From contig CAYWEY010000007.1 in the NCBI GenBank assembly GCA_964457955.1, positions 8,783 through 40,782 of the forward strand: a stretch of 32,000 bases of DNA. The letters run 5' to 3'. Made by a program: the position numbers and the translations under genes. The DNA comes from Candidatus Woesearchaeota archaeon (GTDB taxonomy: Archaea > Nanobdellota > Nanobdellia > Tiddalikarchaeales > Tiddalikarchaeaceae). Under the pieces are notes generated by a model. The model was not told the origin of the DNA, searched no databases, and worked only from the letters and a program-made list of their open reading frames with translations. Below, piece after piece: positions 12,751-27,592 of this stretch; within the stretch, counting starts at the first letter, position 1, and every line of letters begins with the position of its first letter.

Positions 12751-13245
12751 TTACCATGGTTCTTTCTTAACACCCATCTTATGCCCTATAATGTTTGCTG
12801 TGCGGTGAATAATTGGAGTGATTATGATAAGAGTAAAGAACGTAATCCAAGAATAAGGTGTTACTATTCTCGCAAGTATTAGTGCTCCTATCATGAAGTC
12901 AATCATGTCAAGAAATCCTGCTTTAGCACCTCTCTTTATTCCTTTCCTTCTCTTAATAAAACTGCCAGCCATATCACCAAGCATTGCTCCCAGACCAATA
13001 AGTGAAAAACTCCATAAATGAATATTGTTCTGCACTATTCTTTTTAGCACTACTCCTGTAATAGTGGAGACTAAGACTGCGAAGAATAATCCTTCCCAAG
13101 TCTTCCCATCTCCCAGTAATCGTTTGCCGCGCCATTTTTTTCCAAAATCAATAGGGTGCTTTTTTAAACTAATAAGGAAGGGTGGTGCTCCGTTCGCAAA
13201 ATAAGCAGGTATTCCGATAAGGATTATTTCTGAAAAAAAACTCAT
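12751..13245 (-). CDS. carS: CDP-archaeol synthase (DUF46/CarS family)
   Basis: 164-aa polytopic membrane protein. Motifs AYFANGAPPF, PIDFGKKWRGKRLLGDGKTWEG, GDMAGSFIKRRKGIKRGAKAGFLDMIDF. Confidence 0.85.
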   Translation of the reverse strand: MSFFSEIILIGIPAYFANGAPPFLISLKKHPIDFGKKWRGKRLLGDGKTWEGLFFAVLVSTITGVVLKRIVQNNIHLWSFSLIGLGAMLGDMAGSFIKRRKGIKRGAKAGFLDMIDFMIGALILARIVTPYSWITFFTLIIITPIIHRTANIIGHKMGVKKEPW

Positions 13246-13312
13246 TATTTAAAGAATTATTTCTGTATAATTAAAAATGTTTTTAAACAATTCAATAATT
13301 ATTTTAGAATAC

Positions 13313-13897
13313 ATGATACTAAGCAGGATAAGAAAATGGTTCCATAAAGCAGTGGATCCTTTAATAAATTTCTTGGTTTTTTTAAAAATTACTCCAAACA
13401 TGGTTACAACTTCTGCTTTGCTCTTCTTATTCCCAACACTGTACTTCATAATGAATAAGAATACTTTCTGGGGAGGAATATTTATGGGAATAACATCAGT
13501 TATTGATGCTGTTGATGGAGCAGTAGCGGACAAAGTAGGTACGACCCGTTTCGGAGATTTTTATGATGCAGTGATTGACAGATTAGTTGAAGGAACTTTT
13601 TTTGTAGCAATCAGTTTAGGATTCCCTGAATACACTTATCTGTGTTTTTTAGCATTTCTTTTCAGTTACATGGTTAGTTATGTTGGTGCACGTGCAGAAG
13701 TATGGACTATAGGGATTAAGATGAAATATTTAAGTATAGGCAGCAGGGCGGGAAGACTCACCGTTCTTGTAGGCAGTTTAATACTCGGCTACTTAAGGAT
13801 TGGATTAATTATTGTCATAATAATAGCATTAATAGCATTGATTGGAAGAAGTTTTGTAACAATGGTAGTGTTAAGGAAGGCGAAGAAGACGAAATGA
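13313..13897 (+). CDS. CDP-alcohol phosphatidyltransferase family protein (archaetidyl-serine/-inositol-phosphate/-glycerol-phosphate synthase type)
   Basis: Signature D-x2-DG-x2-A-[R]-x7-G-x3-D-x3-D is present as DAVDGAVADKVGTTRFGDFYDAVID, with Asp at the usual Arg position. Multi-TM protein. The start could also be the ATG at 13277; I prefer 13313 (MILSRIRKWFHKAVDPL...ITPNMVT) because it leaves room for divergent promoters. Confidence 0.85.
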   Translation: MILSRIRKWFHKAVDPLINFLVFLKITPNMVTTSALLFLFPTLYFIMNKNTFWGGIFMGITSVIDAVDGAVADKVGTTRFGDFYDAVIDRLVEGTFFVAISLGFPEYTYLCFLAFLFSYMVSYVGARAEVWTIGIKMKYLSIGSRAGRLTVLVGSLILGYLRIGLIIVIIIALIALIGRSFVTMVVLRKAKKTK

Positions 13898-14062: not shown

Positions 14063-14959
14063 ATGGAGATATTAACAACAACTACTTTCAAAAAAATGAT
14101 TTTTGAAACAAAAAATATTATGAACAATAAGAAAGATTATTTGAATTATGTTAATGTCTTCCCAGTACGTGATGGTGATACTGGGGATAATTTGTTAAAA
14201 ACATTTAATAATTCAAGAATAAGCGGGAAGAAATCGCTTAAAGAATTCATGCATGAACTGAAAGAATCATTATTATTAAGCGCAAGAGGGAATAGTGGAG
14301 TAATAATCTCCCAGTTTTATAAAGGATTCTGCGATTATTTAATAAAACAAAAATATGTTGGGTGTAACGAGTTTGCTGAAGCAATAAACAATGGTTGCGA
14401 GTATGCTTATAATGCAGTGAATAATCCTGTTGAAGGAACAATGCTTACAGTGCTGAAAGGAGCGAGTCAGGGAGCGTTCAAAGTATTAGATAAGACTGAA
14501 TCAATAATTGATGTGATGATAGGTTCTTTTGATTCAGCCCAGGAATACTTGAAGAAAACAATGAACATGCTTCCAGTTCTGAAAAAATCAGGAGTGGTTG
14601 ATGCAGGAGGATTAGGTGTTGTTTACATGCTCGGAGCTTGGCTCAGGGCTTTAGGAATAATACCTGAGTACGATCCGAGTATTGAGAATATGATTGTTAA
14701 AGAACAAAAGATGACAATTGAGAAAAAGCACTGCATTAATATTTTGTTAGAGAACTGCTCAGAATATGAAGAAGATGTTAGGAATGTTTTGGAAAAAGAA
14801 GGAGATTCTATTCAAATAATAACAAGCAGAAAATATTTACGAATCCATATTCATTCTGATAATTGTGAAAAGATTAAGAATATTTGTTCTGCTTTCGGAA
14901 AACTAAAAGAATATAAAACAACTAATATGAGAAAACAATATGAAAAAATCAGGAATTAG
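14063..14959 (+). CDS. Dak2-domain protein, FakA/YloV-like (fatty-acid kinase ATP-binding subunit) lacking the C-terminal domain
   Basis: NVFPVRDGDTGDNL and SARGNSGVIISQFYKG (Dak2/DhaL nucleotide-binding motifs). Middle-region pattern KHCINILLENC...EGDSIQIIT...LRIHIHSDNCEKI...TTNMRKQ as in YloV/FakA. 298 aa. Confidence 0.85.
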   Translation: MEILTTTTFKKMIFETKNIMNNKKDYLNYVNVFPVRDGDTGDNLLKTFNNSRISGKKSLKEFMHELKESLLLSARGNSGVIISQFYKGFCDYLIKQKYVGCNEFAEAINNGCEYAYNAVNNPVEGTMLTVLKGASQGAFKVLDKTESIIDVMIGSFDSAQEYLKKTMNMLPVLKKSGVVDAGGLGVVYMLGAWLRALGIIPEYDPSIENMIVKEQKMTIEKKHCINILLENCSEYEEDVRNVLEKEGDSIQIITSRKYLRIHIHSDNCEKIKNICSAFGKLKEYKTTNMRKQYEKIRN

Positions 14960-15752
14960 GATAATTGTTGACAACACAGTTGATTACTTGTCAGGAACAG
15001 ATAAAAACTTTGTCAGTGAAGTTAAGATTCATTTATTCATGAATAACAAAGAAGTGAATCTGGATAAAAAAAGTTTTTACAAAAAAATAAGAAATAATAG
15101 TTTCAGGACAAGTCAGCCAAACCCTGATGATTTCCTGAAAATATATGAAAAGTATAAAGATAAGAAATTAATAGTACTAACACTCACTTCAAAACTAAGC
15201 GGCACGCATAATAGTGCATTAATCGCAAAAAAGAAGAGCAAGAACCAGTATATTTCTGTAATTGATTCAAGAACAACAAGCGCGGGATTAGGAATATTGG
15301 TTAAGAAAGCAACGAGTATGATTAAAGAAGAATATTCTTATGAAGAAATAATAAAAAAGATTAAAAAAATTGTTCCAAAAATAAGAATTTTTTTAGTGCT
15401 TAAAAAACTTAAGTACTTAGTTAGGAGAGGAAGAATTAATAAATCATTAGGTGTATTGGACAATATTGTTCATTTAAAACCAGTAATAGGTTTTTATAAC
15501 GGAGAATTAAAGAGTGCGGGAAAAATGCTGTTATTTGAAAATATTGAGAAAGGATTCTATAATTATATTCATAAAAGAATTCTTAATGCTCAAAAAATAT
15601 ATCTTCTTCATAATAATATGAAGAGAGAAGCAGATTATTTAAAAAAAAGATTCGGAAGAGAGTATGGTGTTGAAGTAATTGATTACTTGAATCCAGCACT
15701 AGGTGTTTATTCAGGACCAGAATGTATTGCAATAGGGTGGATTGAGGAATGA
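14940..15752 (+). CDS. DegV-family fatty-acid-binding protein (FakB-like)
   Basis: IRIIVDNTVDYL, RTSQPNPDDFLKIYEKY, LTLTSKLSGTHNSALIA, VIDSRTTSAGLG, LKKLKYLVRRGRINK, HLKPVIGF, GVYSGPECIAIGW. Overlaps the upstream gene by 20 nt and plsY by ATGA. Confidence 0.9.
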   Translation: MKKSGIRIIVDNTVDYLSGTDKNFVSEVKIHLFMNNKEVNLDKKSFYKKIRNNSFRTSQPNPDDFLKIYEKYKDKKLIVLTLTSKLSGTHNSALIAKKKSKNQYISVIDSRTTSAGLGILVKKATSMIKEEYSYEEIIKKIKKIVPKIRIFLVLKKLKYLVRRGRINKSLGVLDNIVHLKPVIGFYNGELKSAGKMLLFENIEKGFYNYIHKRILNAQKIYLLHNNMKREADYLKKRFGREYGVEVIDYLNPALGVYSGPECIAIGWIEE

Positions 15753-16288
15753 TAATTACTATATTATTAAGCTACTTGATAGGCAGTTTTCCAACAGCAT
15801 ACTTGTTTTATAAAAAAATATTTAATAAAGGCACTGGAAACATGGGTGCTTACAATTTTTTAAAAACCACGAACTCGTATCTTAAAACAAGCATAATACT
15901 GCTTATTGATGTGTTTAAAGGAGTTCTTATCGTGATTCTTTCGCAAACACTTAGTCCAGGACTAAATAGTCTTATTATTGGAGTAGTTTCAGGAATAATA
16001 GGTCATGATTACAGTATATTCGTGAATTTCAAGGGAGGAAAAGGACTTGGTTTAAGTATTGGAGTATTATTATTACTGGAGCCTTTCTTCTTAGTTTACA
16101 TGATTATGATTCTCGGAGTATTATACTTTATTTTCAGAAATAATGTTAAGGCAGGACTTGCGAGCATACCTTTCCTAATAATTCTTTATTTAATAATGAA
16201 TCCCGAGAATTATCCTCTTATTCTTGGAGTAATCAGTGCATTACTAATAGTTCACAAAGACGTGATTAAGATTCTTAATTCTTTTTAA
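15749..16288 (+). CDS. plsY: PlsY-family acyl-phosphate:glycerol-3-phosphate acyltransferase homologue
   Basis: YLIGSFPTAYL, GTGNMGAYN (motif 1), IDVFKG (motif 2), GHDYSIFVNFKGGKGLG (motif 3). 179-aa polytopic membrane protein. Confidence 0.8.
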   Translation: MIITILLSYLIGSFPTAYLFYKKIFNKGTGNMGAYNFLKTTNSYLKTSIILLIDVFKGVLIVILSQTLSPGLNSLIIGVVSGIIGHDYSIFVNFKGGKGLGLSIGVLLLLEPFFLVYMIMILGVLYFIFRNNVKAGLASIPFLIILYLIMNPENYPLILGVISALLIVHKDVIKILNSF

Positions 16289-17201
16289 CACCGCACTTCT
16301 TTAACAACTCATCCCATTCATTATCAACATGTTTTTGTATTCTCTTAATAAACTCTTCATTCTCATCCTTAAATAAGTGTTTAAAACGACCCTGAGTCTC
16401 TAAATATTTCTTAATAGGAATCCTGTTCTTATTATGATAATTAAGTTTGTACTCTCCATCCTCTATCTCGTATAATGGCCAGAAATTAGTCTTCACAGCA
16501 AGTTTGCTTATGTCAATACTCATATCATACTTATGCTTCCATCCTACAGGACAGGGACTGAAAACATTAATGAAAGCAGGTCCTTTTTTACTAAAAGCTT
16601 TCTTTGCTTTATTAATTAAGTCATTCCAGTCATGAACTGCTGCTTGAGCAGCGTAAGGAATATTATGGGCTGCAACAATTTCAGTAATATTCTTCCTGTA
16701 CTCTTTTTTTCCGAAACTCTTCTTTCCCGCAGGACTTGTTGTAGTACTCGCACCGTAAGGAGTTGCACTGCTTCTCTGAATACCCGTATTCATATAAGCT
16801 TCATTATCATAACAAACATATAGAAAATTATGTCCTCTCTCAAGTGCTCCGCTCAAGGACTGGAGCCCAATATCATATGTTCCGCCATCTCCTCCGAAAG
16901 CAACAAAATTAATCTTCTTCTTAATCTTTCCATTCTTTTTTAACGCACGATAAGCTGTTTCAATACCACTTATTGTGGCACCCGCGTTCTCAAAAGCGCT
17001 GTGAATGAAAGGAACATTCCAGCTCGTGTAAGGATAAATAGTTGTAGTAACTTCCATGCAACCAGTTGCAGCACATACAACAACAGGGTCTTCGCTAGCC
17101 CTGAGTATATTCCTCATAATTATTGGAAAAGCGCATCCTGCACAACTCCTGTGTCCCGGATTAATTTTTTCAGGCTTTTCACTTAATTCTTTAAGATTCA
17201 T
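16275..17201 (-). CDS. porB: Pyruvate (2-oxoacid):ferredoxin oxidoreductase beta subunit (TPP-binding)
   Basis: PGHRSCAGCA, GCMEV, and the TPP motif FGGDGGTYDIGLQSL...YDNEAYMNTGIQRS. Last gene of the gamma-delta-alpha-beta order. Confidence 0.9.
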   Translation of the reverse strand: MNLKELSEKPEKINPGHRSCAGCAFPIIMRNILRASEDPVVVCAATGCMEVTTTIYPYTSWNVPFIHSAFENAGATISGIETAYRALKKNGKIKKKINFVAFGGDGGTYDIGLQSLSGALERGHNFLYVCYDNEAYMNTGIQRSSATPYGASTTTSPAGKKSFGKKEYRKNITEIVAAHNIPYAAQAAVHDWNDLINKAKKAFSKKGPAFINVFSPCPVGWKHKYDMSIDISKLAVKTNFWPLYEIEDGEYKLNYHNKNRIPIKKYLETQGRFKHLFKDENEEFIKRIQKHVDNEWDELLKKCGVKKN

Positions 17202-18343
17202 TTTCTCACCCCAATATATTTTTCAGGCTTCTTATTCTTCAGCATCTTATCAAAAACGTTTTTTACGTCTTTTTCAAATAAGTCTCTTCCTCCGAGTCCG
17301 AAAACACAACTATGCACTTCTTTATCCACACTATTCTTTATCTCTGAATAGAGGGGAGGATTAGCACCAAAACTAGTGCTCCTGTCTAATACGCACATAT
17401 TCTTAACATTCTTTAAAGCTTTACCAACTTCTTCGTATGGGAAAGGACGGAACAAACGAATCTTTAATAATCCTACTTTCTTACCTTCTTTTCTCATATT
17501 ATCAACAACATGCTTAGTGATTCCTGCAGCAGTACTCATAGTAACAATAACACAATCAGCATCATCCATCCTGTACTCTTCAAAATAAGGATAATTTCTT
17601 CCAGTTATTTTTGATAATTCTTCACCAATATTCAAATACTCTTTCTTCGCCTTCTCCATTGCCTGAATACGCTGGAATTGTGTTTCAAAATAATAATCCT
17701 GAAGTTCGAGAGGACCCATAGTAACGGGTTTGTCAACATTTAATAAATAATGCTTGGGCTCGTACTCTCCCACGAATTCCTGAACAGTTTTTTCATCAAG
17801 TATTTTCATATTCTGAACACAGAAACTGTTGATAAAACCATCCTGCATAATCATAGCAGGAAGCATGACTTTTTCAGCAAGCTTAATACTTAATAAAGTA
17901 TTGTCATAAACATCCTGAGCATTCTCACTGTACATCTGAATCCATCCAATATCCCTGCAAGCCATACTGTCCGCATGATCACAATGAATATTGATAGGGC
18001 TGCTTAAAGCCCTGTTAACTATGTTCATTACAATAGGAAGACGAGTTCCGCTCGCAACACCAAGTATTTCAAACATTAATGCAAGTCCGGCACTGCTTGT
18101 TGCAGTCATTGCCCTGGCTCCAGCAGCACTCGCTCCAACACAACCACTCATTGCGCTGTGTTCGCTCTCAACAAGAATCATTTCAGTATCAACCTCGCCG
18201 TCAGCAACGAACTGTGTGAAACTCATCATAATATTCGTCTGCGGCGTAATTGGGAAAGCACTCACTACATCAGGATTAATCTGCTTCATCACGTGGGCAG
18301 CAGATTCTGCTCCAGTAAAAATGACTTTTTTCTGACTTATCAT
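17198..18343 (-). CDS. porA: Pyruvate (2-oxoacid):ferredoxin oxidoreductase alpha subunit
   Basis: FTGAESAAHVMKQINPDVVSAFPITPQT, ESEHSAMSGCVGASAAGARAMTATSSAGLALM. ATGA overlaps on both sides. Confidence 0.9.
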   Translation of the reverse strand: MISQKKVIFTGAESAAHVMKQINPDVVSAFPITPQTNIMMSFTQFVADGEVDTEMILVESEHSAMSGCVGASAAGARAMTATSSAGLALMFEILGVASGTRLPIVMNIVNRALSSPINIHCDHADSMACRDIGWIQMYSENAQDVYDNTLLSIKLAEKVMLPAMIMQDGFINSFCVQNMKILDEKTVQEFVGEYEPKHYLLNVDKPVTMGPLELQDYYFETQFQRIQAMEKAKKEYLNIGEELSKITGRNYPYFEEYRMDDADCVIVTMSTAAGITKHVVDNMRKEGKKVGLLKIRLFRPFPYEEVGKALKNVKNMCVLDRSTSFGANPPLYSEIKNSVDKEVHSCVFGLGGRDLFEKDVKNVFDKMLKNKKPEKYIGVRK

Positions 18344-18660
18344 TTCTCGCCCACCCCGTAATTCTCAACCATTCTGATAGCATTAACCGGGCAGATCTTA
18401 GCACATATACCGCATCCTTTACAGTAATCAAGATCAGCATCCTGAATCTGTCCTTTCTTAATTTTTATACAATTCTCAGGGCAGAACATGAAGCATAATA
18501 AGCAATTAGTGCAAGTTTCAGGATTCCTAACTGGTTCGGCACTCTTCCAGTCGCCAGTTCTGTACTCAACACTGCTTCCTGGACTAATGATTGTTCCACC
18601 TATAGGGATTTCTCCAGCACCCATTTTTTTGTCACAATATTCTGATTTTTTCTTCTTCAT
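18340..18660 (-). CDS. porD: Pyruvate:ferredoxin oxidoreductase delta subunit (2x[4Fe-4S] ferredoxin-type)
   Basis: Two cluster motifs, CTNCLLCFMFCP and CKGCGICAKICP. The presence of a delta subunit favours POR/VOR-type enzymes. Confidence 0.9.
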   Translation of the reverse strand: MKKKKSEYCDKKMGAGEIPIGGTIISPGSSVEYRTGDWKSAEPVRNPETCTNCLLCFMFCPENCIKIKKGQIQDADLDYCKGCGICAKICPVNAIRMVENYGVGEK

Positions 18661-19217
18661 TTTATAACAGCCTCTTCAAAAGCTTTCTTAACACCTTTAA
18701 CATTTTTTTCAGCAATCTTTTTACCAAAATGTTCCTTAATAGCTTTATTAAAATTATCTAAATTTATGATATCTTGATTTGTTGCTTTAATAAAAGCACC
18801 AGTAGTAATAAGGTTTGGCTTATTAACATTCATTAAACTAATACTTATTCCTGTAGCATCAACAACACCAACTTTTCCCTTAAAACCAACTTTTTTCCTA
18901 ATTTTTTCAGGGCTTTTGCGAGTGTTTACAATCAGTAAACCATTACTAGCCAAGTCCTGAATAATCTTTTTGCACAATAGTGTTTCATCAATAACAATTA
19001 AAGCATCAGGAGTGGTGATAGGGGAGAAAGTCTTAATAATATTCTTACTTATGCGCGCAAAAGTCCTCATAGGTGCTCCAGCGCGCTCAGGCCCGTATTC
19101 AGGAAAAGCCTGTACGTAATCATCCATCATGAAACCAGCTTCAGCAATTAATTGAGCGCCTGTCTTAGCACCCTGTCCTCCTCTTCCATGCATTCTTATC
19201 TCATAAAAATCACTCAT
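18657..19217 (-). CDS. porG: Pyruvate:ferredoxin oxidoreductase gamma subunit
   Basis: IRMHGRGGQGAKTGAQLIAEA N-terminus. First gene of porGDAB. TTTATAAAAAA box centred about 26 nt upstream. Confidence 0.9.
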   Translation of the reverse strand: MSDFYEIRMHGRGGQGAKTGAQLIAEAGFMMDDYVQAFPEYGPERAGAPMRTFARISKNIIKTFSPITTPDALIVIDETLLCKKIIQDLASNGLLIVNTRKSPEKIRKKVGFKGKVGVVDATGISISLMNVNKPNLITTGAFIKATNQDIINLDNFNKAIKEHFGKKIAEKNVKGVKKAFEEAVIK

Positions 19218-20799: not shown

Positions 20800-22137
20800 T
20801 TACTTAAGCAAATCCTTTGCTTTAAAAACTGTTATTGTATTCGTTGTTTTCTTAATAAAGAATCCTGCAACAAAAACAATTGTTTCATCCTTTTTTATTA
20901 AATTATTTTTCACACACATCCTGGTTGTTTTAAATAATTCATCAGTATCATACTCTTCCATTCCTTCATAATATTGAGGCATTACACCATAATTTATCAT
21001 CAACTGTTTTTCAACAATTTTTTCAGGAGTGATAGCAATAATATTCTTTTTTGGTTTAAAACGGCTCAGCATTCTTGCAGTATGTCCTGAACGAGTCAGG
21101 CAGATAATCTGGGCATCAAGTTCGTCAGCAACACCAAAAGCATAATCAGTTATAATATTCTCAACATCGATTTTTTCAAGCTCGTAATGAGGCATTTCAG
21201 CCAGACTCTCAGTATTAAGACATATCTTATTCATCTTATTCACAACAATCACCGGATAATCACCAATACTTGTTTCTCCTGAAAGCATAAGACAATCAGC
21301 ACCATCCAGTATTGCATTAGCAACATCACTCGTCTCCGCTCTTGAAGGATTCTTACTCTTAATCATTGACTCCATCATCTGGGTTGCAACAATAACAGGC
21401 TCGCCAATAATATTGCATTTCTTAATAATCTTTTTCTGAATCATCGGAACTTTCTCACTAGGCATCTCAACACCCAAGTCTCCGCGCGCAATCATGACTC
21501 CATGAGCTTCTTCCAATATTTCATTGAAATTATCCACTCCTTCCTTGTTCTCAATCTTTGCAATAACTCTGATACCAGTATTTTTTAACTTCTTCTTAAC
21601 AAGTCTTAAATCATCAGCACTGCTCGTGTAAGAAACTCCTATGAATTCAATATTATTCTTTACAGCAAACTTGATTCCTTTTTCATCCTTTTCAGTAAGA
21701 ACAGGAAGTTCTATATCAATATTTCTGAAAATAATGCTCTTATTCTTCCTTAACTCACCATTATTCATCATCTTAACACGGACAGAGTCTTTCTTAACAT
21801 CAATAATTTCTCCATTATTCATTCCGTCATTAAATAATACTTCAACACCTTTGCTTAATTTGTCATAAATATCAACTGATAAAGAGAACTCAATAACATC
21901 ATCTTCTTCAAAAACAATATCCTCATTAACAGTCCTTACTTCAGGCCCCTGAGTATCAAGAAGTATTGGAATATCGGAAACATTTCTGACATTCTCTATT
22001 ATTTTTTCATACTGCTCAAAATCACCATGGGATAAGTTAATCCTTGCAGAATTCATGCCATTATTAACCATTTTTTTAATAATATTCTCGTCCATACTGC
22101 TGGGTCCCAGAGTACATATGATTTTTGTCTTCTTCAT
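20800..22137 (-). CDS. pyk: Pyruvate kinase
   Basis: KTKIICTLGPSS, RINLSHG, DTQGPEVR, IAKIENKEG, MIARGDLGVEMP, VATQMMESM, LSGETSIG. Its ATG overlaps the TGA of the upstream TrxR-like gene. Confidence 0.95.
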   Translation of the reverse strand: MKKTKIICTLGPSSMDENIIKKMVNNGMNSARINLSHGDFEQYEKIIENVRNVSDIPILLDTQGPEVRTVNEDIVFEEDDVIEFSLSVDIYDKLSKGVEVLFNDGMNNGEIIDVKKDSVRVKMMNNGELRKNKSIIFRNIDIELPVLTEKDEKGIKFAVKNNIEFIGVSYTSSADDLRLVKKKLKNTGIRVIAKIENKEGVDNFNEILEEAHGVMIARGDLGVEMPSEKVPMIQKKIIKKCNIIGEPVIVATQMMESMIKSKNPSRAETSDVANAILDGADCLMLSGETSIGDYPVIVVNKMNKICLNTESLAEMPHYELEKIDVENIITDYAFGVADELDAQIICLTRSGHTARMLSRFKPKKNIIAITPEKIVEKQLMINYGVMPQYYEGMEEYDTDELFKTTRMCVKNNLIKKDETIVFVAGFFIKKTTNTITVFKAKDLLK

Positions 22138-23006
22138 TTTCTCCTCCTCTTAATAATATTCTGTCCAGCAACAGCGCCTTCACTAACTGCTTTACACACT
22201 TGAAGTAATCCTCCTGTGCAGTCGCCTGCAGCCCAAACATTATTAGTATTAGTCTCCTGATTATCATCCACTTTTATGAAATAATTCTTAATTTCTATTC
22301 CCAATTCTCTTGCAAAATCAATGCTTGAAGCAGAACCAAGGAATACGAAAACACCATCAGTCCTGAATTCTTCACCATCAATGATTAAAGACTCTACTTT
22401 TTTATCTCCTTTTATTTCACTCACTTCTTTATCAATGATTTCAATATCATTCTCTTTTAATTCAGTCATCAAATCCTCACTAATATTCATTTCTTTACTG
22501 TTTGTTATTAGAGTAATATTCTGAGTAAAATCAATTAATTCCAGTGCTTTATCAGCACCATAATCCTCATTACCGATAACAACAACTTTCTTGTTTTTAA
22601 AGAAGAAAGCGTCACACATTGTGCAGTAACTCACTCCTTTACCAACAAATTTTTCCTCATTCTTAATACCACTTTTCTTAATTTCAACACCTGTAGCAAT
22701 TAACAAAAACTTTGATTCATAATTTTCTTTTTTTGTCTTAACAATAAATAATTCATTTTCTTTCTTAACACTCAATACTTCATCATTAATTATTTCAGCA
22801 CCACAATCCTCTGCCTGCTCAGTGCCTTTAACCATTAATTTTTTTCCGCTGATATTATTGTTTCCGAAAAAATTCTTGATAATAACTTCATCTTTCCATA
22901 TATCATTCTCTTTACCTATTATTAGAGTGCTTAATCCTGCAATACTTGTGTATATTCCTGCACTAAGTCCTGCAGGTCCCCGTCCTATTATAATAACTTC
23001 ATACAT
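22134..23006 (-). CDS. trxB: Thioredoxin-reductase-family flavoprotein with a degenerate NADPH-binding site
   Basis: FAD motif VIIIGRGPAGLSAG, redox-active CTMC in the position of CATC, C-terminal WAAGDCTGG. The positions of GGGNSA and HRRxxxR read VVVIGNEDYGADKA and LITNSKEMNIS. Confidence 0.85.
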   Translation of the reverse strand: MYEVIIIGRGPAGLSAGIYTSIAGLSTLIIGKENDIWKDEVIIKNFFGNNNISGKKLMVKGTEQAEDCGAEIINDEVLSVKKENELFIVKTKKENYESKFLLIATGVEIKKSGIKNEEKFVGKGVSYCTMCDAFFFKNKKVVVIGNEDYGADKALELIDFTQNITLITNSKEMNISEDLMTELKENDIEIIDKEVSEIKGDKKVESLIIDGEEFRTDGVFVFLGSASSIDFARELGIEIKNYFIKVDDNQETNTNNVWAAGDCTGGLLQVCKAVSEGAVAGQNIIKRRRK

Positions 23007-23035: not shown

Positions 23036-23278
23036 TTATTTACTCTTTTTATTCTCCAAAACTTTATCTATTGCTATTTTGTTAAAACCAACAATAATCT
23101 CTCCATCAATATCAGTTACTGGCACACCCATCTGCCCGCTTTTCTCAATCATTTCATGAGCTTTCTCATCATCCTCACTCACATCGTATTCTGTAAAATC
23201 TATATTCTTGGACTTAAGATATTTCTTTACTTTTTTACAATAAGGACACGTTGGTGTTGAATAAACAATAACTTCCAT
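23036..23278 (-). CDS. Glutaredoxin-like / NrdH-like small redoxin
   Basis: 80 aa. VIVYSTPTCPYCKKVKKYL (CPYC active site), GVPVT...GFN. Lies 29 nt upstream of the TrxR-like gene on the same strand. Confidence 0.9.
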   Translation of the reverse strand: MEVIVYSTPTCPYCKKVKKYLKSKNIDFTEYDVSEDDEKAHEMIEKSGQMGVPVTDIDGEIIVGFNKIAIDKVLENKKSK

Positions 23279-23342
23279 AATAAAAGAATATTTTCCTATC
23301 TTTTAATAAGTTTTTTATACTAATAACTTTAATCAATTCTTG

Positions 23343-24698
23343 ATGAAAAAACATTTCATTAAAAGAGAATTAGATAAGAATAATAAGTTCGGCCAGAAAA
23401 CAATATATTATCACAGCCTGGATGAAATAATACGAATAGGAGAATCATTGCATGGTATTAAGCCTGATAAGAAGTATTTGGATTTCAATGAAAAGTACAA
23501 ATACACTCCTAAAATGAAGTATTCCCCCCTACAGCCTGAACCTTCCTGCGAGCCGAGCAGGACTTACCCATACCATGATGTATTATTCCATACTTTCGCT
23601 ATTAAGAAAGATGAAACTATGATAATAACTAGTCCAACAAGTGCTTTAAAAGCAGGATTAATGATAAAGAGTGAAGATGAGATTAAAAAAATATTATACT
23701 CTGATGATGAAGAAGGTTTTGAATTGATTAAGAAAAGAGTCAGGGAAGCGGGAGACAAGAACTTGTTCAGTGAAGCTTTTGTTGAAGGACTCTTGTGTTA
23801 TAATGCAGGAACTTATAAAGTCAGCAGTAAGAGTGAGGAAACACTTGATAAAATTATTATGGAGTTTAATGATGATAAGAGTGACGTGATTATTAAAAAA
23901 GAAACCAGTCCTAAACTATATGATTTGGCAGGCAAGCAGCCTTTAAGGAAGATTCCCTTAACCCAGGAATTTTTTATTCCTGAATCGCATGACATATTCG
24001 GTAACTGTTATCTTAATAAGATGTCAAAAATAAAATATGAATGGTTAAGAATACAGATTTACTGCCATCACTGGCTTACAGTTCTCTACGCGTTGAAGCA
24101 CGGGAATGAAAGAATAGGTGTGAAAGGAGCTGATTATGCATCAAACATTATTATTCCTTTTGAAGACATTATTAGTATGAAGAATCCGGAAATTGTCAGG
24201 ACTGCTCTTGAGATGAATTATTTCAAAAACACTGATTTTCCTAATCCTTCATTTGCAAGAAAAGAAGAATTACTTAATTGTCATGTTGATGCATGGTTGC
24301 TTAATTTTCCTGAAGAAATTCATCCTCCCGAAATAAATGATGTTATGAAGAAATACGCCTTAAGTGATTATCAAAGGAAAGAAAAGACTGCAAGAATATG
24401 GGGTTTGTACAAGATTCATCCAGAAATAGTTAAGCACTGGAAAAAAGTTATTAATTTAATGAGTCTTAATGACTTGAAACAAGAAGTTCAGGATTTAAGT
24501 AAAGAAGAATTACAGGAATATTTTTATAATAAAGCCAGAGATAAAAAATTTCTTAAAAAAACTCAGACAATAAATTCATCAAAATATTACAGTGTTGATG
24601 CAGACTCTGTGAAGACACCTTTAAGAATTGCAAGAAAAGATGATGTATTATTTTATGACGGATGGCCTTATAAGAACAGGAAATTAACAACTCCTTGA
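23343..24698 (+). CDS. Hypothetical protein (about 451 aa), no family recognised
   Basis: Long clean ORF. The track start at 23340 is TTG, immediately followed by an ATG at 23343. No catalytic motif I can name. Its 3' end overlaps the convergent surface-protein gene by 15 nt. Confidence 0.7.
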   Translation: MKKHFIKRELDKNNKFGQKTIYYHSLDEIIRIGESLHGIKPDKKYLDFNEKYKYTPKMKYSPLQPEPSCEPSRTYPYHDVLFHTFAIKKDETMIITSPTSALKAGLMIKSEDEIKKILYSDDEEGFELIKKRVREAGDKNLFSEAFVEGLLCYNAGTYKVSSKSEETLDKIIMEFNDDKSDVIIKKETSPKLYDLAGKQPLRKIPLTQEFFIPESHDIFGNCYLNKMSKIKYEWLRIQIYCHHWLTVLYALKHGNERIGVKGADYASNIIIPFEDIISMKNPEIVRTALEMNYFKNTDFPNPSFARKEELLNCHVDAWLLNFPEEIHPPEINDVMKKYALSDYQRKEKTARIWGLYKIHPEIVKHWKKVINLMSLNDLKQEVQDLSKEELQEYFYNKARDKKFLKKTQTINSSKYYSVDADSVKTPLRIARKDDVLFYDGWPYKNRKLTTP

Positions 24699-25814
24699 AC
24701 ATGTTGTTGTTGAAACAGCATAATCACATCCTTCAGGAACAAATTTTTCATTATCATCACAATTATTTAAGTCAGTGCATTCTCTTGTCTGAACACCATT
24801 AATGCATTCACTCCAACTTGTACAGCTCCACTGAGGATAACAAGGAGCGCACCGAATAACTGTTTTAGGAGCATCCTCAACCTGGTTGCATTCATTCCTG
24901 TCATAACATTCTTTTGTCTGTGTATGATTAATGCAATCACTCCCTTCCGTACATATCCAATCAGGATTACATAATATTCCTGGATTAAGTATTTCATCAA
25001 TATCCGGGCAGGACTGGTTGATGAAGTATTTTCCACATTTGCTTATTTGATTAGCATAATTATCGTACTCATTTTTTGTTACTCCACTCCAAGGGTCTTC
25101 AGGGATTGAGCATAAATACCATTTATAACAATATTTTTCCCTAATTTCTTCACTGCTCCTGTTAATGTAATACTTATTTATTGTTTGTTCAGTATTGAGA
25201 AGACAATTATCACACCTAGTCATATACTTGTACTGGGTTTCTCTTTCGCATTCATACACGCAGTTCTCTCTACATTCAATAGTATTGCAGGATTGGTTGC
25301 ATTTTTCAAAACAAGACCATGGTTCAGAAACATCCACTTCTTCAATCACTGTCTCATTCACTGAAGGCTCTTCCATTAAATCAATTAATGCTTCTGTAGA
25401 ATTATCATAATTAACAAAATAAGTATTATTTTCATAAAATATTTCAATTATTGTGTAAGTAGTGTTAATCGAATAATTTCCGGATTCTTCATCATAAGTG
25501 ACTGTTTCATTAGTTCCTAAAGGCATGGTTCTTAAACTCCCGCTCTTATTTGTGATGTAATAATATATCTGGGTTGATTCATTATAGTATATTGCTTCAT
25601 TCTTTTCTGAAACTTCTTCCAAAACACCACCATCATCAGTAATCACTATCCCACCATCATTATTTGTTAAATCGGGAGTGATTCCTTCACCACTTGTTAT
25701 GTTCTGATTATTAATATCTTCTTTCTGAAAAATTATGAAAAAAATTATTCCAATAACTATTAATAATACCAGTATTAATGATATTAATAATATTAACAAA
25801 GTGTTTCTTTTCAT
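24684..25814 (-). CDS. Membrane-anchored, sequon-rich, Cys-rich surface protein with two TSR-like Cys repeats
   Basis: N-terminal signal-anchor MKRNTLLILLISLILVLLIVIGIIFFIIF. I count 13 N-x-S/T sequons. Cys-rich C-terminal half. I use the ATG at 25814 (ATGA overlap with the aIF5B stop) rather than the TTG at 25826. Confidence 0.8.
   Translation of the reverse strand: MKRNTLLILLISLILVLLIVIGIIFFIIFQKEDINNQNITSGEGITPDLTNNDGGIVITDDGGVLEEVSEKNEAIYYNESTQIYYYITNKSGSLRTMPLGTNETVTYDEESGNYSINTTYTIIEIFYENNTYFVNYDNSTEALIDLMEEPSVNETVIEEVDVSEPWSCFEKCNQSCNTIECRENCVYECERETQYKYMTRCDNCLLNTEQTINKYYINRSSEEIREKYCYKWYLCSIPEDPWSGVTKNEYDNYANQISKCGKYFINQSCPDIDEILNPGILCNPDWICTEGSDCINHTQTKECYDRNECNQVEDAPKTVIRCAPCYPQWSCTSWSECINGVQTRECTDLNNCDDNEKFVPEGCDYAVSTTTCSRSC
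24726..24971 (-). repeat. Two tandem ~40-aa cysteine repeats (protein level) of pattern C-x3-W-x-C-x5-C-x-N/G-x-Q-T-R/K-E-C-x-D-x-N-x-C
   Basis: Repeat 1 is CNPDWICTEGSDCINHTQTKECYDRNECNQVEDAPKTVIRC (residues 286-326 from the TTG-based numbering). Repeat 2 is CYPQWSCTSWSECINGVQTRECTDLNNCDDNEKFVPEGC (residues 329-367). Confidence 0.65.
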
Positions 25815-27592
25815 CCCATTCCCCAAGCAAAATTTTTTTTCCTCTTAATCTTCATCACTTCCTGAACAACAGAGAGTTCGTTTTCAGTCATATAATTTCT
25901 TAGTTTTTTTTTAATTTTAAGAAACTCTTTCTCAGGAAGACTGGAGTAAAGAATTTCTCCGCCAGTAAAATCTTTTTCATAAACAGCATTCTTTATACTG
26001 CAGGCAAGTCTTTCGCCTGCAATTGCACTTTTTTTTGTCACTCCCTGCTCTTCCAGTTTCTTGACTCTTCCAATAATGTCTCCAGCTGAGTTCATGAGTA
26101 TAGTCCCGCTTGTTATTTTTCCCATAATTACTTCTACACCAACAACAGCAGGATTACTTTTTCTGAAAACAAAGTCTCCAAGCACTCTTATTTTGCATGG
26201 CTGCATGATTTTTTTAAGCTCTTCTTTCTTCTTTTTCTCCATTTCAGTATTCTTCCACTTTTTGTATTCTTCAAGAAGTTCGTATATTATTTTTGAATTA
26301 ATGAATTTTATGCCTTCACTTTTTCCTAATTTTTCAGCATCTTCATGAATATTTACGTTAAAACCCATAATTACTCCAAGATACTGGTTTTGTTCTTTAC
26401 TCCTCACAGCATTCATGACATTTTTTTTATTAATATTACCTATTTTTGCCTTACTTATTTTGATACCATGATTCTTCATGAAAGCTGTTATTGCTTCAAG
26501 GCTTCCCAGACTGTCTGCTTTTAGAACAATACCTTCTTTCTCAGTTTCTATTATTGTTTCGCTCATCTCTTCCTTCATCTCTTCTGCTAATTTTTTAGCT
26601 TCACTCATTGAATCAGCACTTCTTACAGGCATGCCTGGAACAGCATTCTCAAGATTAGGTGCATTAATCTTAATCCCTGTTGCAGCAGCAACTTTTTTAA
26701 TCTGTTTAAACTTGCACTGCTTGTCTCTTATTTCCTGCAATGGAAACGGTTTCAATAATGCTCTTATTCTTGTTATTATTGGTTCAGGAATGCTTCCAAC
26801 AACCAAGTACTGGTTTTTTTTCATAATGCCGTCATAAATTATAATATCTATTGTTGTACCCATGCCTTTTGTTTTCTTAACTTCAAGAATATTACCTTTT
26901 GCTTTCCCTGTTGTTGTTTTAAGTTCTTCACCTAAGTATTTCTGGGACAAACCGCTTATAAGCATTAGTAACTCACTTACTCCTTCACCCGTTTTAGCAC
27001 TGCAGGGTATGATAGCAACTTTTTCCTTATAATCCTTAATCTTGTTATAAATATCGCAATCAATATTGTAATTTCCTAAACCAACCATTATATCATACAT
27101 CTTGTTCTGCAAATATTCTTTTATATTTGATGATTGTTCTTTTATTGACTCATGAAAACACAATGTTTTTTTAGCCCTCCAACCAGGAATTAAATCTATC
27201 TTATTTGCAGCTATGATGAAAGGAACCTTAAAATGTTTAAGAATTTCAATACTTTCTCTTGTCTGGGTCTGTATTCCCTGAGTAATGTCAATAACTAATA
27301 CTGCAAGGTCTGCTATGCTTCCTCCTCTCTTCCTTAAATTAGTGAAAGCTTCGTGGCCTGGAGTGTCAATCGCCAATACTCCTGGAATATTCAGCTGGAT
27401 ATCTAATTTTTTTAATAATTCTCCGCATATCTGGTTAATTTTTGGTGAAGGAATTTCTGTAGCACCTATGCACTGGGTTATTCCTCCCGGCTCTTTTTTC
27501 TGCACAACACTCTCCCTTATCTTATCCAGTAAACTGCTTTTCCCGTGATCAACATGCCCTACAAACACGATTATTGGGCTTCTGCGGCTCAT
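25811..27592 (-). CDS. infB: Translation initiation factor aIF5B (IF-2 family GTPase)
   Basis: G1 VGHVDHGKSSLLD, G3 DTPGHEAF, G4 AANKIDL. 593 aa, typical archaeal length and domain order. Confidence 0.95.
   Translation of the reverse strand: MSRRSPIIVFVGHVDHGKSSLLDKIRESVVQKKEPGGITQCIGATEIPSPKINQICGELLKKLDIQLNIPGVLAIDTPGHEAFTNLRKRGGSIADLAVLVIDITQGIQTQTRESIEILKHFKVPFIIAANKIDLIPGWRAKKTLCFHESIKEQSSNIKEYLQNKMYDIMVGLGNYNIDCDIYNKIKDYKEKVAIIPCSAKTGEGVSELLMLISGLSQKYLGEELKTTTGKAKGNILEVKKTKGMGTTIDIIIYDGIMKKNQYLVVGSIPEPIITRIRALLKPFPLQEIRDKQCKFKQIKKVAAATGIKINAPNLENAVPGMPVRSADSMSEAKKLAEEMKEEMSETIIETEKEGIVLKADSLGSLEAITAFMKNHGIKISKAKIGNINKKNVMNAVRSKEQNQYLGVIMGFNVNIHEDAEKLGKSEGIKFINSKIIYELLEEYKKWKNTEMEKKKKEELKKIMQPCKIRVLGDFVFRKSNPAVVGVEVIMGKITSGTILMNSAGDIIGRVKKLEEQGVTKKSAIAGERLACSIKNAVYEKDFTGGEILYSSLPEKEFLKIKKKLRNYMTENELSVVQEVMKIKRKKNFAWGMG

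What the first reader, a model, noticed from the sequence alone, without database searches (positions are those of the whole stretch)
22134..23006. Thioredoxin-reductase homologue keeps its FAD and CxxC sites but has a degenerate NADPH-binding site
Seen: the FAD motif GRGPAG, the redox-active CTMC and the C-terminal AAGDCTGG are all present. Where NADPH-dependent TrxRs carry GGGNSA and the 2'-phosphate-binding HRRxxxR, this protein reads VVVIGNEDYGADKA and LITNSKEMNIS, with no GxGxxA and no arginines. Established: pyridine-nucleotide-independent members of this family exist. Examples are the ferredoxin-dependent flavin thioredoxin reductases of clostridia, an F420-dependent enzyme in Methanocaldococcus, and the Thermoplasma enzyme that does not use NADPH. 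Inference: this enzyme probably takes electrons from something other than NADPH. Ferredoxin reduced by the nearby porGDAB is an obvious candidate, and the CPYC redoxin encoded 29 nt upstream is the likely substrate.
Basis: partly seen in the sequence, partly recalled or inferred. Interest (0 to 1): 0.6.

Follow-up and report, generated by a model that had tools for sequence, protein, structure and literature searches.

The report
NADPH-independent thioredoxin reductase in nanoarchaeon
This tiny-genome archaeon carries a disulfide-repair enzyme that has lost its NADPH site; it is an archaeal relative of a known bacterial type (TRi) whose electron source is still unidentified, and neighbouring genes in relatives point modestly to a small iron-sulfur ferredoxin.

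Summary
Observation confirmed. The 290-aa ORF (22134-23006, minus strand) keeps the FAD, CxxC and thioredoxin-docking motifs. Both NADPH motifs are replaced in register (GNEDYG for GGGxSA; TNSK for HRRD). It is Desulfovibrio TRi (PDB 5NII; E 1e-59; model TM 0.94-0.95, against 0.72 for clostridial FFTR), shown not to use NADPH or NADH, donor unknown. The host is a 1.26-Mb Nanoarchaeia genome; TRi was described only from bacteria. Orthologues follow the same aIF2...tri-pyk order in 7 of 8 family genomes. In three it is the only thioredoxin reductase found. Por genes are not adjacent in relatives. Outside the family, YruB-type redoxins neighbour 8/59 TRi genes (2/93 others) and single-cluster ferredoxins 3/59 (0/93). 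Best reading: ferredoxin to FAD to CxxC to redoxin/thioredoxin (about 0.6). Flavodoxin is not excluded; no F420 genes were found. The scan noted a similar NADPH-site-less reductase in another genome, without naming TRi. Verdict: new member of a known kind, a useful test case for TRi's donor.

The parts
22134..23006 (-). TRi-type flavin thioredoxin reductase, 290 aa (P0001)
   Evidence: PF07992; TIGR01292 234.6 bits, below its 343 cut-off; 5NII best, E 1.4e-59; TM 0.94-0.95 to 5NII; tree
22968..22985 (-). FAD-binding GxGxxG motif GRGPAG (res 8-13)
   Evidence: sequence; G8, G10, G13 invariant in 32 homologues
22614..22625 (-). Redox-active CxxC (CTMC, res 128-131), flanked by thioredoxin-docking GKG and FF
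   Evidence: sequence; C128, C131, D132, F135 invariant; docking residues as defined in PMC5627308
22557..22574 (-). Degenerate pyrophosphate-binding loop GNEDYG (res 145-150) in place of GGGxSA; Tyr149 is aromatic in 114 of 119 homologues
22494..22505 (-). TNSK (res 168-171), variant of the TRi signature T[Q/N]GK, in place of HRRD
   Evidence: signature from PMC5627308
22209..22232 (-). C-terminal FAD motif AAGDCTGG (res 259-266)
   Evidence: sequence; aligned to the same motif in 5NII
23036..23278 (-). YruB/Cp9-type glutaredoxin-like redoxin, 80 aa, CPYC; probable acceptor; stop codon 29 nt upstream of tri
   Evidence: TIGR02196 100.9 bits, above its 88.55 cut-off; PF00462
20800..22137 (-). 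Pyruvate kinase, 445 aa; start overlaps the tri stop (ATGA); a GGAGG-type sequence forms the last Arg codons of tri; conserved downstream neighbour
   Evidence: TIGR01064 above cut-off; junction; adjacent in 7 of 7 relatives
16275..19217 (-). porC-D-A-B (gamma, delta, alpha, beta) pyruvate:ferredoxin oxidoreductase; probable source of reduced ferredoxin, but not a conserved neighbour
   Evidence: on other contigs than tri in relatives

Best explanation
A homodimeric FAD disulfide reductase of the TRi clade that takes electrons from a one-electron protein carrier instead of NAD(P)H. Steps: (1) pyruvate:ferredoxin oxidoreductase (and the second 2-oxoacid:ferredoxin oxidoreductase) reduces a small ferredoxin, most likely a single-cluster [4Fe-4S] type (genes shown; the step is inferred). 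(2) Two ferredoxin transfers reduce FAD (inferred, by analogy with FFTR; the weakest step). (3) The pseudo-NADPH domain swings so that FADH2 reduces C128-C131 (established for the fold; DvTRi needs such a movement). (4) The dithiol reduces the adjacent CPYC redoxin and/or the genome's thioredoxin (shown for DvTRi with Trx1; inferred here). (5) These feed methionine-sulfoxide reductase and probably the class III ribonucleotide reductase through its neighbouring redoxin (genes shown; link inferred). Odds: TRi clade about 0.93; not NADPH about 0.95; redoxin or thioredoxin as acceptor about 0.85; ferredoxin as donor about 0.6.
For: Best PDB match by sequence and by fold is DvTRi, which is not reduced by 1 mM NADPH or NADH but reduces Trx1 when artificially reduced (PMC5627308). 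The tree separates 29 TRi-like rows from 21 others at 96/97, with the query inside, apart from the genome's own second reductase. Both NAD(P)H motifs are lost in register. All 9 family genomes have a 2-oxoacid:ferredoxin oxidoreductase and Fer4 proteins. A single-cluster ferredoxin gene (PF13370/PF13459) lies 7-25 nt from tri on the same strand in three unrelated lineages: grx-tri-fd in L132, OFOR-beta-fd-tri in L140, tri-fd in Natronoplasma L034. Counts are 3/59 TRi loci against 0/93 others, and 3/14 against 0/52 among archaeal loci. A related ferredoxin lies 2-3 genes downstream of tri in 6 family relatives. This genome has two such ferredoxins in tandem at G000:C3:51268-51784 and three more small ones. 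YruB redoxin is adjacent in 8/59 against 2/93 and again in L204. YruB/Cp9 redoxins are known to be reduced directly by a TrxR-like enzyme (PMC3720550). No glutathione-reductase-like protein was found in the genome with this query. NrdD with an adjacent redoxin is in 5 of 5 genomes tested.
Against: No biochemistry. The DvTRi authors argued against ferredoxin, because the pocket does not resemble the C. pasteurianum enzyme, and suggested flavodoxin. A flavodoxin-like gene is present in this genome and in 5 of 5 relatives tested. In this genome no ferredoxin gene is near tri. None of the 29 additional clostridial TRi loci had one within 1.2 kb. The overall ferredoxin enrichment is weak (p 0.057; kin are not independent, so even the archaeal p 0.008 overstates). 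In three relatives an opposite-strand gene separates tri-pyk from gpsA-fd, so that ferredoxin may belong with gpsA. The query departs from the clade consensus at S170 (G in 110/119), G150 (A in 115/119) and K153 (E/Q in 116/119). The AlphaFold match to the 5NII conformation may partly reflect training on 5NII.
Confidence: 0.58

Rival explanations
1. Same TRi enzyme, but the donor is flavodoxin (alone or interchangeably with ferredoxin), as proposed for DvTRi.
For: Proposed in PMC5627308. A Flavodoxin_5 protein is encoded at G000:C19:20849-21289 and in G002, G003, G004, G006, G007. PFORs commonly accept flavodoxin (own knowledge).
Against: No flavodoxin-like ORF within 1.2 kb of any of 59 TRi loci (one-query search plus FMN-loop pattern), whereas ferredoxins do occur. 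PF12724 also covers flavodoxin-fold proteins that are not carriers (own knowledge).
Confidence: 0.17
2. An NADH-dependent reductase for the YruB redoxin, like C. pasteurianum Cp34/Cp9 or AhpF.
For: YruB/Cp9 redoxins are paired with an NADH-dependent TrxR-like protein in C. pasteurianum (PMC3720550). Loss of the HRR arginines alone would fit NADH use. No NAD kinase was found in the family.
Against: NADH binding still needs the glycine-rich pyrophosphate loop, which is replaced here by N-E-D-Y. An NADH-type example keeps GGGDSG plus an acidic residue (L093). DvTRi is not reduced by NADH. No peroxiredoxin was found in the genome.
Confidence: 0.07
3. The donor is another low-potential protein, such as the PorD subunit directly, a dicluster ferredoxin tied to another oxidoreductase, or an unrecognised carrier.
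For: The genome has about a dozen Fer4-type proteins. Most TRi genes have no carrier gene beside them.
Against: No conserved unknown neighbour is shared across lineages. Por is not adjacent in relatives.
Confidence: 0.12
4. A decayed or ordinary NADPH-dependent duplicate of the genome's other thioredoxin reductase, or an F420-dependent enzyme.
For: The genome has a second, more canonical reductase (G000:C9:12526-13395; GGSDSA...YRGEE) that could cover the function.
Against: The tree places the two copies on opposite sides of a 96/97 branch. All catalytic residues are intact. Orthologues are kept in 7 of 8 relatives and are the only full-length PF07992 protein in G003, G006 and G007 (92-96% complete). 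CofE and CofC were not found.
Confidence: 0.04

Closest known systems
DvTRi, atypical thioredoxin reductase of Desulfovibrio vulgaris Hildenborough (PDB 5NII; Valette et al. 2017, PMC5627308)
   Same: 38% identity over the whole length; same FAD, CxxC and Trx-docking motifs; degenerate pyrophosphate loop (GEGVFA vs GNEDYG); TQGK vs TNSK; same short loop where E. coli has residues 223-231; model TM 0.94-0.95.
   Different: Archaeal host (the 17 described homologues were Deltaproteobacteria and Clostridia); Ser for Gly in the signature; gene paired with a YruB redoxin and pyruvate kinase rather than isolated; sole reductase found in three relatives, whereas DvTRi is an accessory oxidative-stress enzyme.
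Clostridial ferredoxin-dependent flavin thioredoxin reductase, CaFFTR (PDB 6GNA/6GNC/6GND)
   Same: No NAD(P)H motifs, short chain without C-terminal tail, open conformation; probably works alike (ferredoxin to FAD to CxxC to Trx).
   Different: Lower similarity (E 6e-42, 33%, TM 0.72); different residues at both motifs (GYNKEA; YYVPRYK); reported to use 2x[4Fe-4S] ferredoxin (PMC8154056), whereas TRi neighbours are single-cluster ferredoxins.
Cyanobacterial FFTR/DTR of Gloeobacter (PDB 5J60/6XTF; PMC8154056)
   Same: Pyridine-nucleotide-independent flavin TR.
   Different: Needs a C-terminal tail with a Trp stacked on FAD; the query ends at the last helix (KRRRK) without it; 26% identity, TM 0.58.
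Thermoplasma acidophilum TrxR (PDB 3CTY) and M. jannaschii F420-dependent DFTR
   Same: Archaeal TRs that do not use NADPH.
   Different: 3CTY keeps GGGNSG and scores E 1e-43, TM 0.55; DFTR needs F420, whose CofE and CofC genes were not found here.
C. pasteurianum Cp34/Cp9/Cp20 system (PMC3720550)
   Same: TrxR-like gene next to a YruB-type redoxin.
   Different: Cp34 is NADH-dependent and serves a peroxiredoxin; no peroxiredoxin was found here and the dinucleotide loop is lost.

Membership tests
TRi (Valette 2017) | Low-molecular-weight TR with only a PF07992 domain, about 300 aa, FAD motifs GxGxxG, ATG, GxFAAGD | tested here: met
   290 aa, PF07992; GRGPAG, ATG, NVWAAGD
TRi (Valette 2017) | CxxC with Trx-docking G[R/K]G and two Phe | tested here: met
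   GKGVSYCTMCDAFFF
TRi (Valette 2017) | Highly degenerate GGGxxAxE pyrophosphate motif | tested here: met
   GNEDYGADK, in register
TRi (Valette 2017) | T[Q/N]GK in place of HRRD | tested here: inconclusive
   Query reads TNSK (3 of 4). Its syntenic orthologues read TNGK (4), SNGK (2) or TNGE (1). The wider clade varies at positions 2 and 4; Gly is in 110 of 119.
TRi (Valette 2017) | Groups with TRi sequences, apart from TR1/NTR | tested here: met
   96/97 branch. DvTRi itself had no reference and was not in the tree; P0006, P0074, L191 and L192 stood in (the first two share GEGxxAANQAxEL with 5NII). 5NII is the top PDB hit by sequence and fold.
TRi (Valette 2017) | Not reduced by NADPH or NADH; reduces canonical Trx | not testable with these tools
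   needs purified protein
TRi (Valette 2017) | Confined to anaerobes | tested here: inconclusive
   Uncultured. The genome has PFOR and class III RNR, which fits an anaerobic metabolism; reads come from microbial-mat metagenomes of one study.
Canonical NTR (TrxB) | GGGxxAxE and VxxxHRRDx[F/L]R motifs | tested here: not met
   TIGR01292 score 234.6, below cut-off 343.45
Clostridial FFTR | Loss of NAD(P)H motifs, no C-terminal tail | tested here: met
Clostridial FFTR | Closest sequence and structure kinship to CaFFTR | tested here: not met
   6GNA E 6e-42, TM 0.72, against 5NII E 1e-59, TM 0.94; CaFFTR was not in the tree
Clostridial FFTR | Reduced by ferredoxin | not testable with these tools
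   only gene-neighbourhood hints
Cyanobacterial FFTR/DTR | C-terminal tail with aromatic residue stacking on FAD | tested here: not met
   chain ends QNIIKRRRK; feature from PMC8154056
DFTR (F420-dependent) | Host makes F420 | tested here: not met
   PF01996 and PF01983 not found in a 94.8% complete genome

The most novel reading that the evidence does not exclude
TRi is a second ferredoxin-dependent flavin thioredoxin reductase family, using single-cluster [4Fe-4S] ferredoxins and YruB-type redoxins. It is scattered through Nanoarchaeia, and in one family it has replaced the NAD(P)H enzyme, wiring thiol repair and dNTP synthesis straight to pyruvate:ferredoxin oxidoreductase. The grx-tri-fd operon of a relative (L132) would be a ready-made test set for the donor left open in 2017.
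Probability: 0.5. Interest if true: 0.6.

Novelty: new member of a known kind. Interest (0 to 1): 0.4.

Why it matters
TRi's electron donor was left open in the 2017 description, and I found no later paper in the library that names it. This finding extends the group from two bacterial classes to nanosized archaea (about 15 of 400 sampled Nanoarchaeia genomes). In some 0.9-1.0 Mb genomes it is the only thioredoxin reductase found, with few candidate carriers, which makes the donor question easy to test. If ferredoxin is the donor, these archaea run disulfide reduction and probably deoxynucleotide synthesis without NADPH. The concept of a pyridine-nucleotide-independent flavin TR is already established, so surprise is moderate.

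Tried and rejected
1) Complex prediction of a TRi dimer with FAD and its adjacent ferredoxin (L132 pair): no answer, score 0.00; not counted either way. 2) Absence of NAD kinase as a reason for losing the NADPH site: 0 of 9 family genomes have it, but 47 of 52 other class genomes lack it too, many with intact [HY]RR reductases, so it does not discriminate. 3) Por adjacency as evidence: not conserved. 4) Excluding flavodoxin by genome content failed: present in all tested. 5) Shifted NADPH motif: none. 6) Local decay of the genome's second reductase: rejected by the tree. 7) Direction of gene transfer between archaea and bacteria: deep TRi branches are unresolved, so no claim is made; GC content of tri (0.32) matches the genome. 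8) Sigma-70 promoter scan: uninformative for an archaeon. 9) No RNA holder listed. 10) Buey 2018 (FFTR) and Wei 2015 (NrdD3) are not held; they are cited only through other papers. 12) TRi searches in Desulfobacterota (2/301) and Thermoplasmatota (1/251) gave too few loci for neighbour counts. 13) Regex classing of loci was rough and was corrected by hand for 11 loci.

Full report
Observation. The finding is a 290-codon ORF on the minus strand at 22134-23006. All quoted motifs are present. Against canonical NADPH enzymes the alignment is gapless across the dinucleotide site: GNEDYG faces GGGDSA, and TNSK faces HRRD. No substitute motif exists elsewhere, and residues 110-222 hold one arginine. 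Contigs from four microbial-mat runs of one study show no differences.

Host. The genome is 1.26 Mb, 31.6% GC, 94.8% complete. The host is therefore a member of Nanoarchaeia.

What it is. The best PDB match by sequence is 5NII (E 1.4e-59; next 4.9e-45). An AlphaFold model (pLDDT 92) matches 5NII at TM 0.94-0.95, clostridial FFTR 6GNA at 0.72 and canonical reductases at about 0.54. AlphaFold may have seen 5NII in training, so the shared open conformation is not independent proof. 5NII is DvTRi. According to PMC5627308 it is not reduced by NADPH or NADH up to 1 mM, it reduces Trx1 when reduced artificially, its signature is T[Q/N]GK, and its donor is unknown. The authors excluded F420, doubted ferredoxin and suggested flavodoxin. 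They found 17 homologues, all in Deltaproteobacteria and Clostridia. The query reads TNSK; its homologues mostly read TNGK. A maximum-likelihood tree separates 29 TRi-like rows from 21 others at 96/97, with the query in a clade of its own family (95/83) and far from the genome's second reductase at C9. DvTRi itself could not be placed in the tree; close look-alikes stood in.

Distribution. Orthologues occur in 7 of 8 same-family genomes, always in the order aIF2...tri-pyk, which points to vertical inheritance within the family. Only this genome and G001 also keep a second, GGSDSA/YRG-type reductase. In G003, G006 and G007 (92-96% complete) TRi is the only full-length PF07992 protein found. Elsewhere in Nanoarchaeia about 13 further TRi-type genes were seen among 400 genomes, in several families. 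Clostridia hold many (45 of 300). Desulfobacterota (2 of 301) and Thermoplasmatota (1 of 251) hold few. The deep branches are unresolved, so no direction of transfer is claimed.

Acceptor. The upstream 80-aa ORF is a YruB-family redoxin above the TIGR02196 cut-off. Such Cp9-type redoxins are reduced directly by a TrxR-like enzyme in C. pasteurianum, and no glutathione-reductase-like protein was found here with the query. Within the family the redoxin is adjacent only in this genome, and a classical thioredoxin is the more constant partner. Across the clade, however, YruB genes flank 8 of 59 TRi genes against 2 of 93 other reductases, while classical thioredoxins show the reverse pattern (2 of 59 against 16 of 93); one more case turned up later. 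Kin inflate these counts. Likely end users are MsrB and a class III ribonucleotide reductase whose gene is followed by a small redoxin in 5 of 5 genomes. Thioredoxin- and NrdH-dependent NrdD subtypes are known. This link is inferred. No peroxiredoxin was found.

Donor. NADPH and NADH are disfavoured by loss of both motifs and by the DvTRi data. F420 is disfavoured because CofE and CofC were not found. The por genes in the window are real but are not neighbours of tri in relatives, so their nearness says nothing; still, all 9 family genomes have such an oxidoreductase. Better evidence comes from three unrelated loci where a single-cluster ferredoxin gene lies 7-25 nt from tri on the same strand: grx-tri-fd (L132), OFOR-beta-fd-tri (L140) and tri-fd (Natronoplasma, L034). 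None of 93 non-TRi loci had this. A related ferredoxin follows tri-pyk-(orf)-gpsA in six family relatives, though it may belong with gpsA. This genome keeps two of them in tandem on another contig. Against this, clostridial TRi loci show no ferredoxin neighbour, the overall enrichment is weak (p 0.057), and flavodoxin-like genes are present in every genome tested, though never beside tri. Absence of NAD kinase looked like a motive but is common across the class and was dropped.

Mechanism. Most likely: PFOR reduces a small ferredoxin; two one-electron transfers reduce FAD; domain rotation passes the electrons to C128-C131; the dithiol reduces the CPYC redoxin or thioredoxin. The genes and the lost NAD(P)H site are shown. 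The domain chemistry follows from the family. The donor is inferred (about 0.6; flavodoxin 0.17; other carrier 0.12; NADH 0.07).

Comparison and verdict. It works like a clostridial FFTR if the donor guess holds, but it does not file as one. By motif, fold and tree it files with TRi, with one signature residue changed (Gly to Ser). Earlier scan notes saw this same stretch and one similar reductase elsewhere, but none named TRi. It is a new member of a known kind, in a new domain of life relative to the 2017 description, and a practical handle on an open question. Interest 0.4.

Noticed in passing
window:12751-16288: Mixed lipid genes in a nanoarchaeon: CDP-archaeol synthase-like (12751-13245), CDP-alcohol phosphatidyltransferase (13277-13897), and bacterial-type fatty-acid kinase FakA/Dak2 (14063-14959), DegV/FakB (14940-15752) and PlsY (15749-16288). 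Relatives keep these nearby, with a bacterial-type glycerol-3-phosphate dehydrogenase gpsA.
   Followed up: partly
L001:6015-6917 (G000:C9:12526-13395): The genome's second thioredoxin reductase keeps GGSDSAAKE but has only one Arg (IIYRGEEIHPE), perhaps NADH-preferring; it lies 1.2 kb from a 2-oxoacid:ferredoxin oxidoreductase alpha/beta pair, as does its orthologue region in G001 (L119).
   Followed up: partly
G009-G060: 47 of 52 Nanoarchaeia genomes show no NAD kinase (PF01513), yet many encode reductases with intact [HY]RR NADPH motifs; the source of NADP(H) is unexplained.
   Followed up: no
L126 (G000:C4:29330-31323): Class III ribonucleotide reductase followed by an 84-aa CPNC redoxin and a dCTP-deaminase-like gene; the NrdD-redoxin pair is conserved in 5 of 5 family genomes tested.
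   Followed up: partly
window:22134-22150: The C-terminal Arg run of the reductase is spelled by AGGAGGAG, a ribosome-binding-like sequence for pyk, whose ATG overlaps the stop (ATGA).
   Followed up: yes
L051, L052, L061, L067, L078, L085, L107: A second clade of reductases without NADPH motifs (e.g. GNESAA...YRALS, GDGSAA...VCNDL) in Desulfobacterota and Methanomassiliicoccales, often next to a thioredoxin; it branches next to TRi in the smaller tree.
   Followed up: no
L161, L162, L164: In three Clostridia a roughly 425-aa thioredoxin-fused reductase gene lies directly upstream of tri.
   Followed up: no
L039:5989-7494 and L181:1003-2376: Two TRi proteins are fused to extra domains (502 aa in an Aenigmatarchaeota genome, followed by a hydrogenase-like large subunit gene; about 458 aa in a clostridium).
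   Followed up: no
L152 (G000:C3:51268-52137): Two tandem single-cluster ferredoxin-like genes behind a rhodanese-like gene, near msrB; one lacks the second Cys of the CxxCxxC motif.
   Followed up: partly
window:19796-20305, 23340-24698, 24684-25826: Three ORFs flanking the unit have no Pfam or NCBIfam match and differ from the genes at these places in relatives, suggesting variable insertion sites on both sides of grx-tri-pyk.
   Followed up: no
L127:5040-7078 (G000:C1): A small cluster of membrane-bound hydrogenase/complex-I-like subunit genes (NuoH-, I-, B-, D-, C-like by eye); a possible ferredoxin sink. Not annotated with tools.
   Followed up: no
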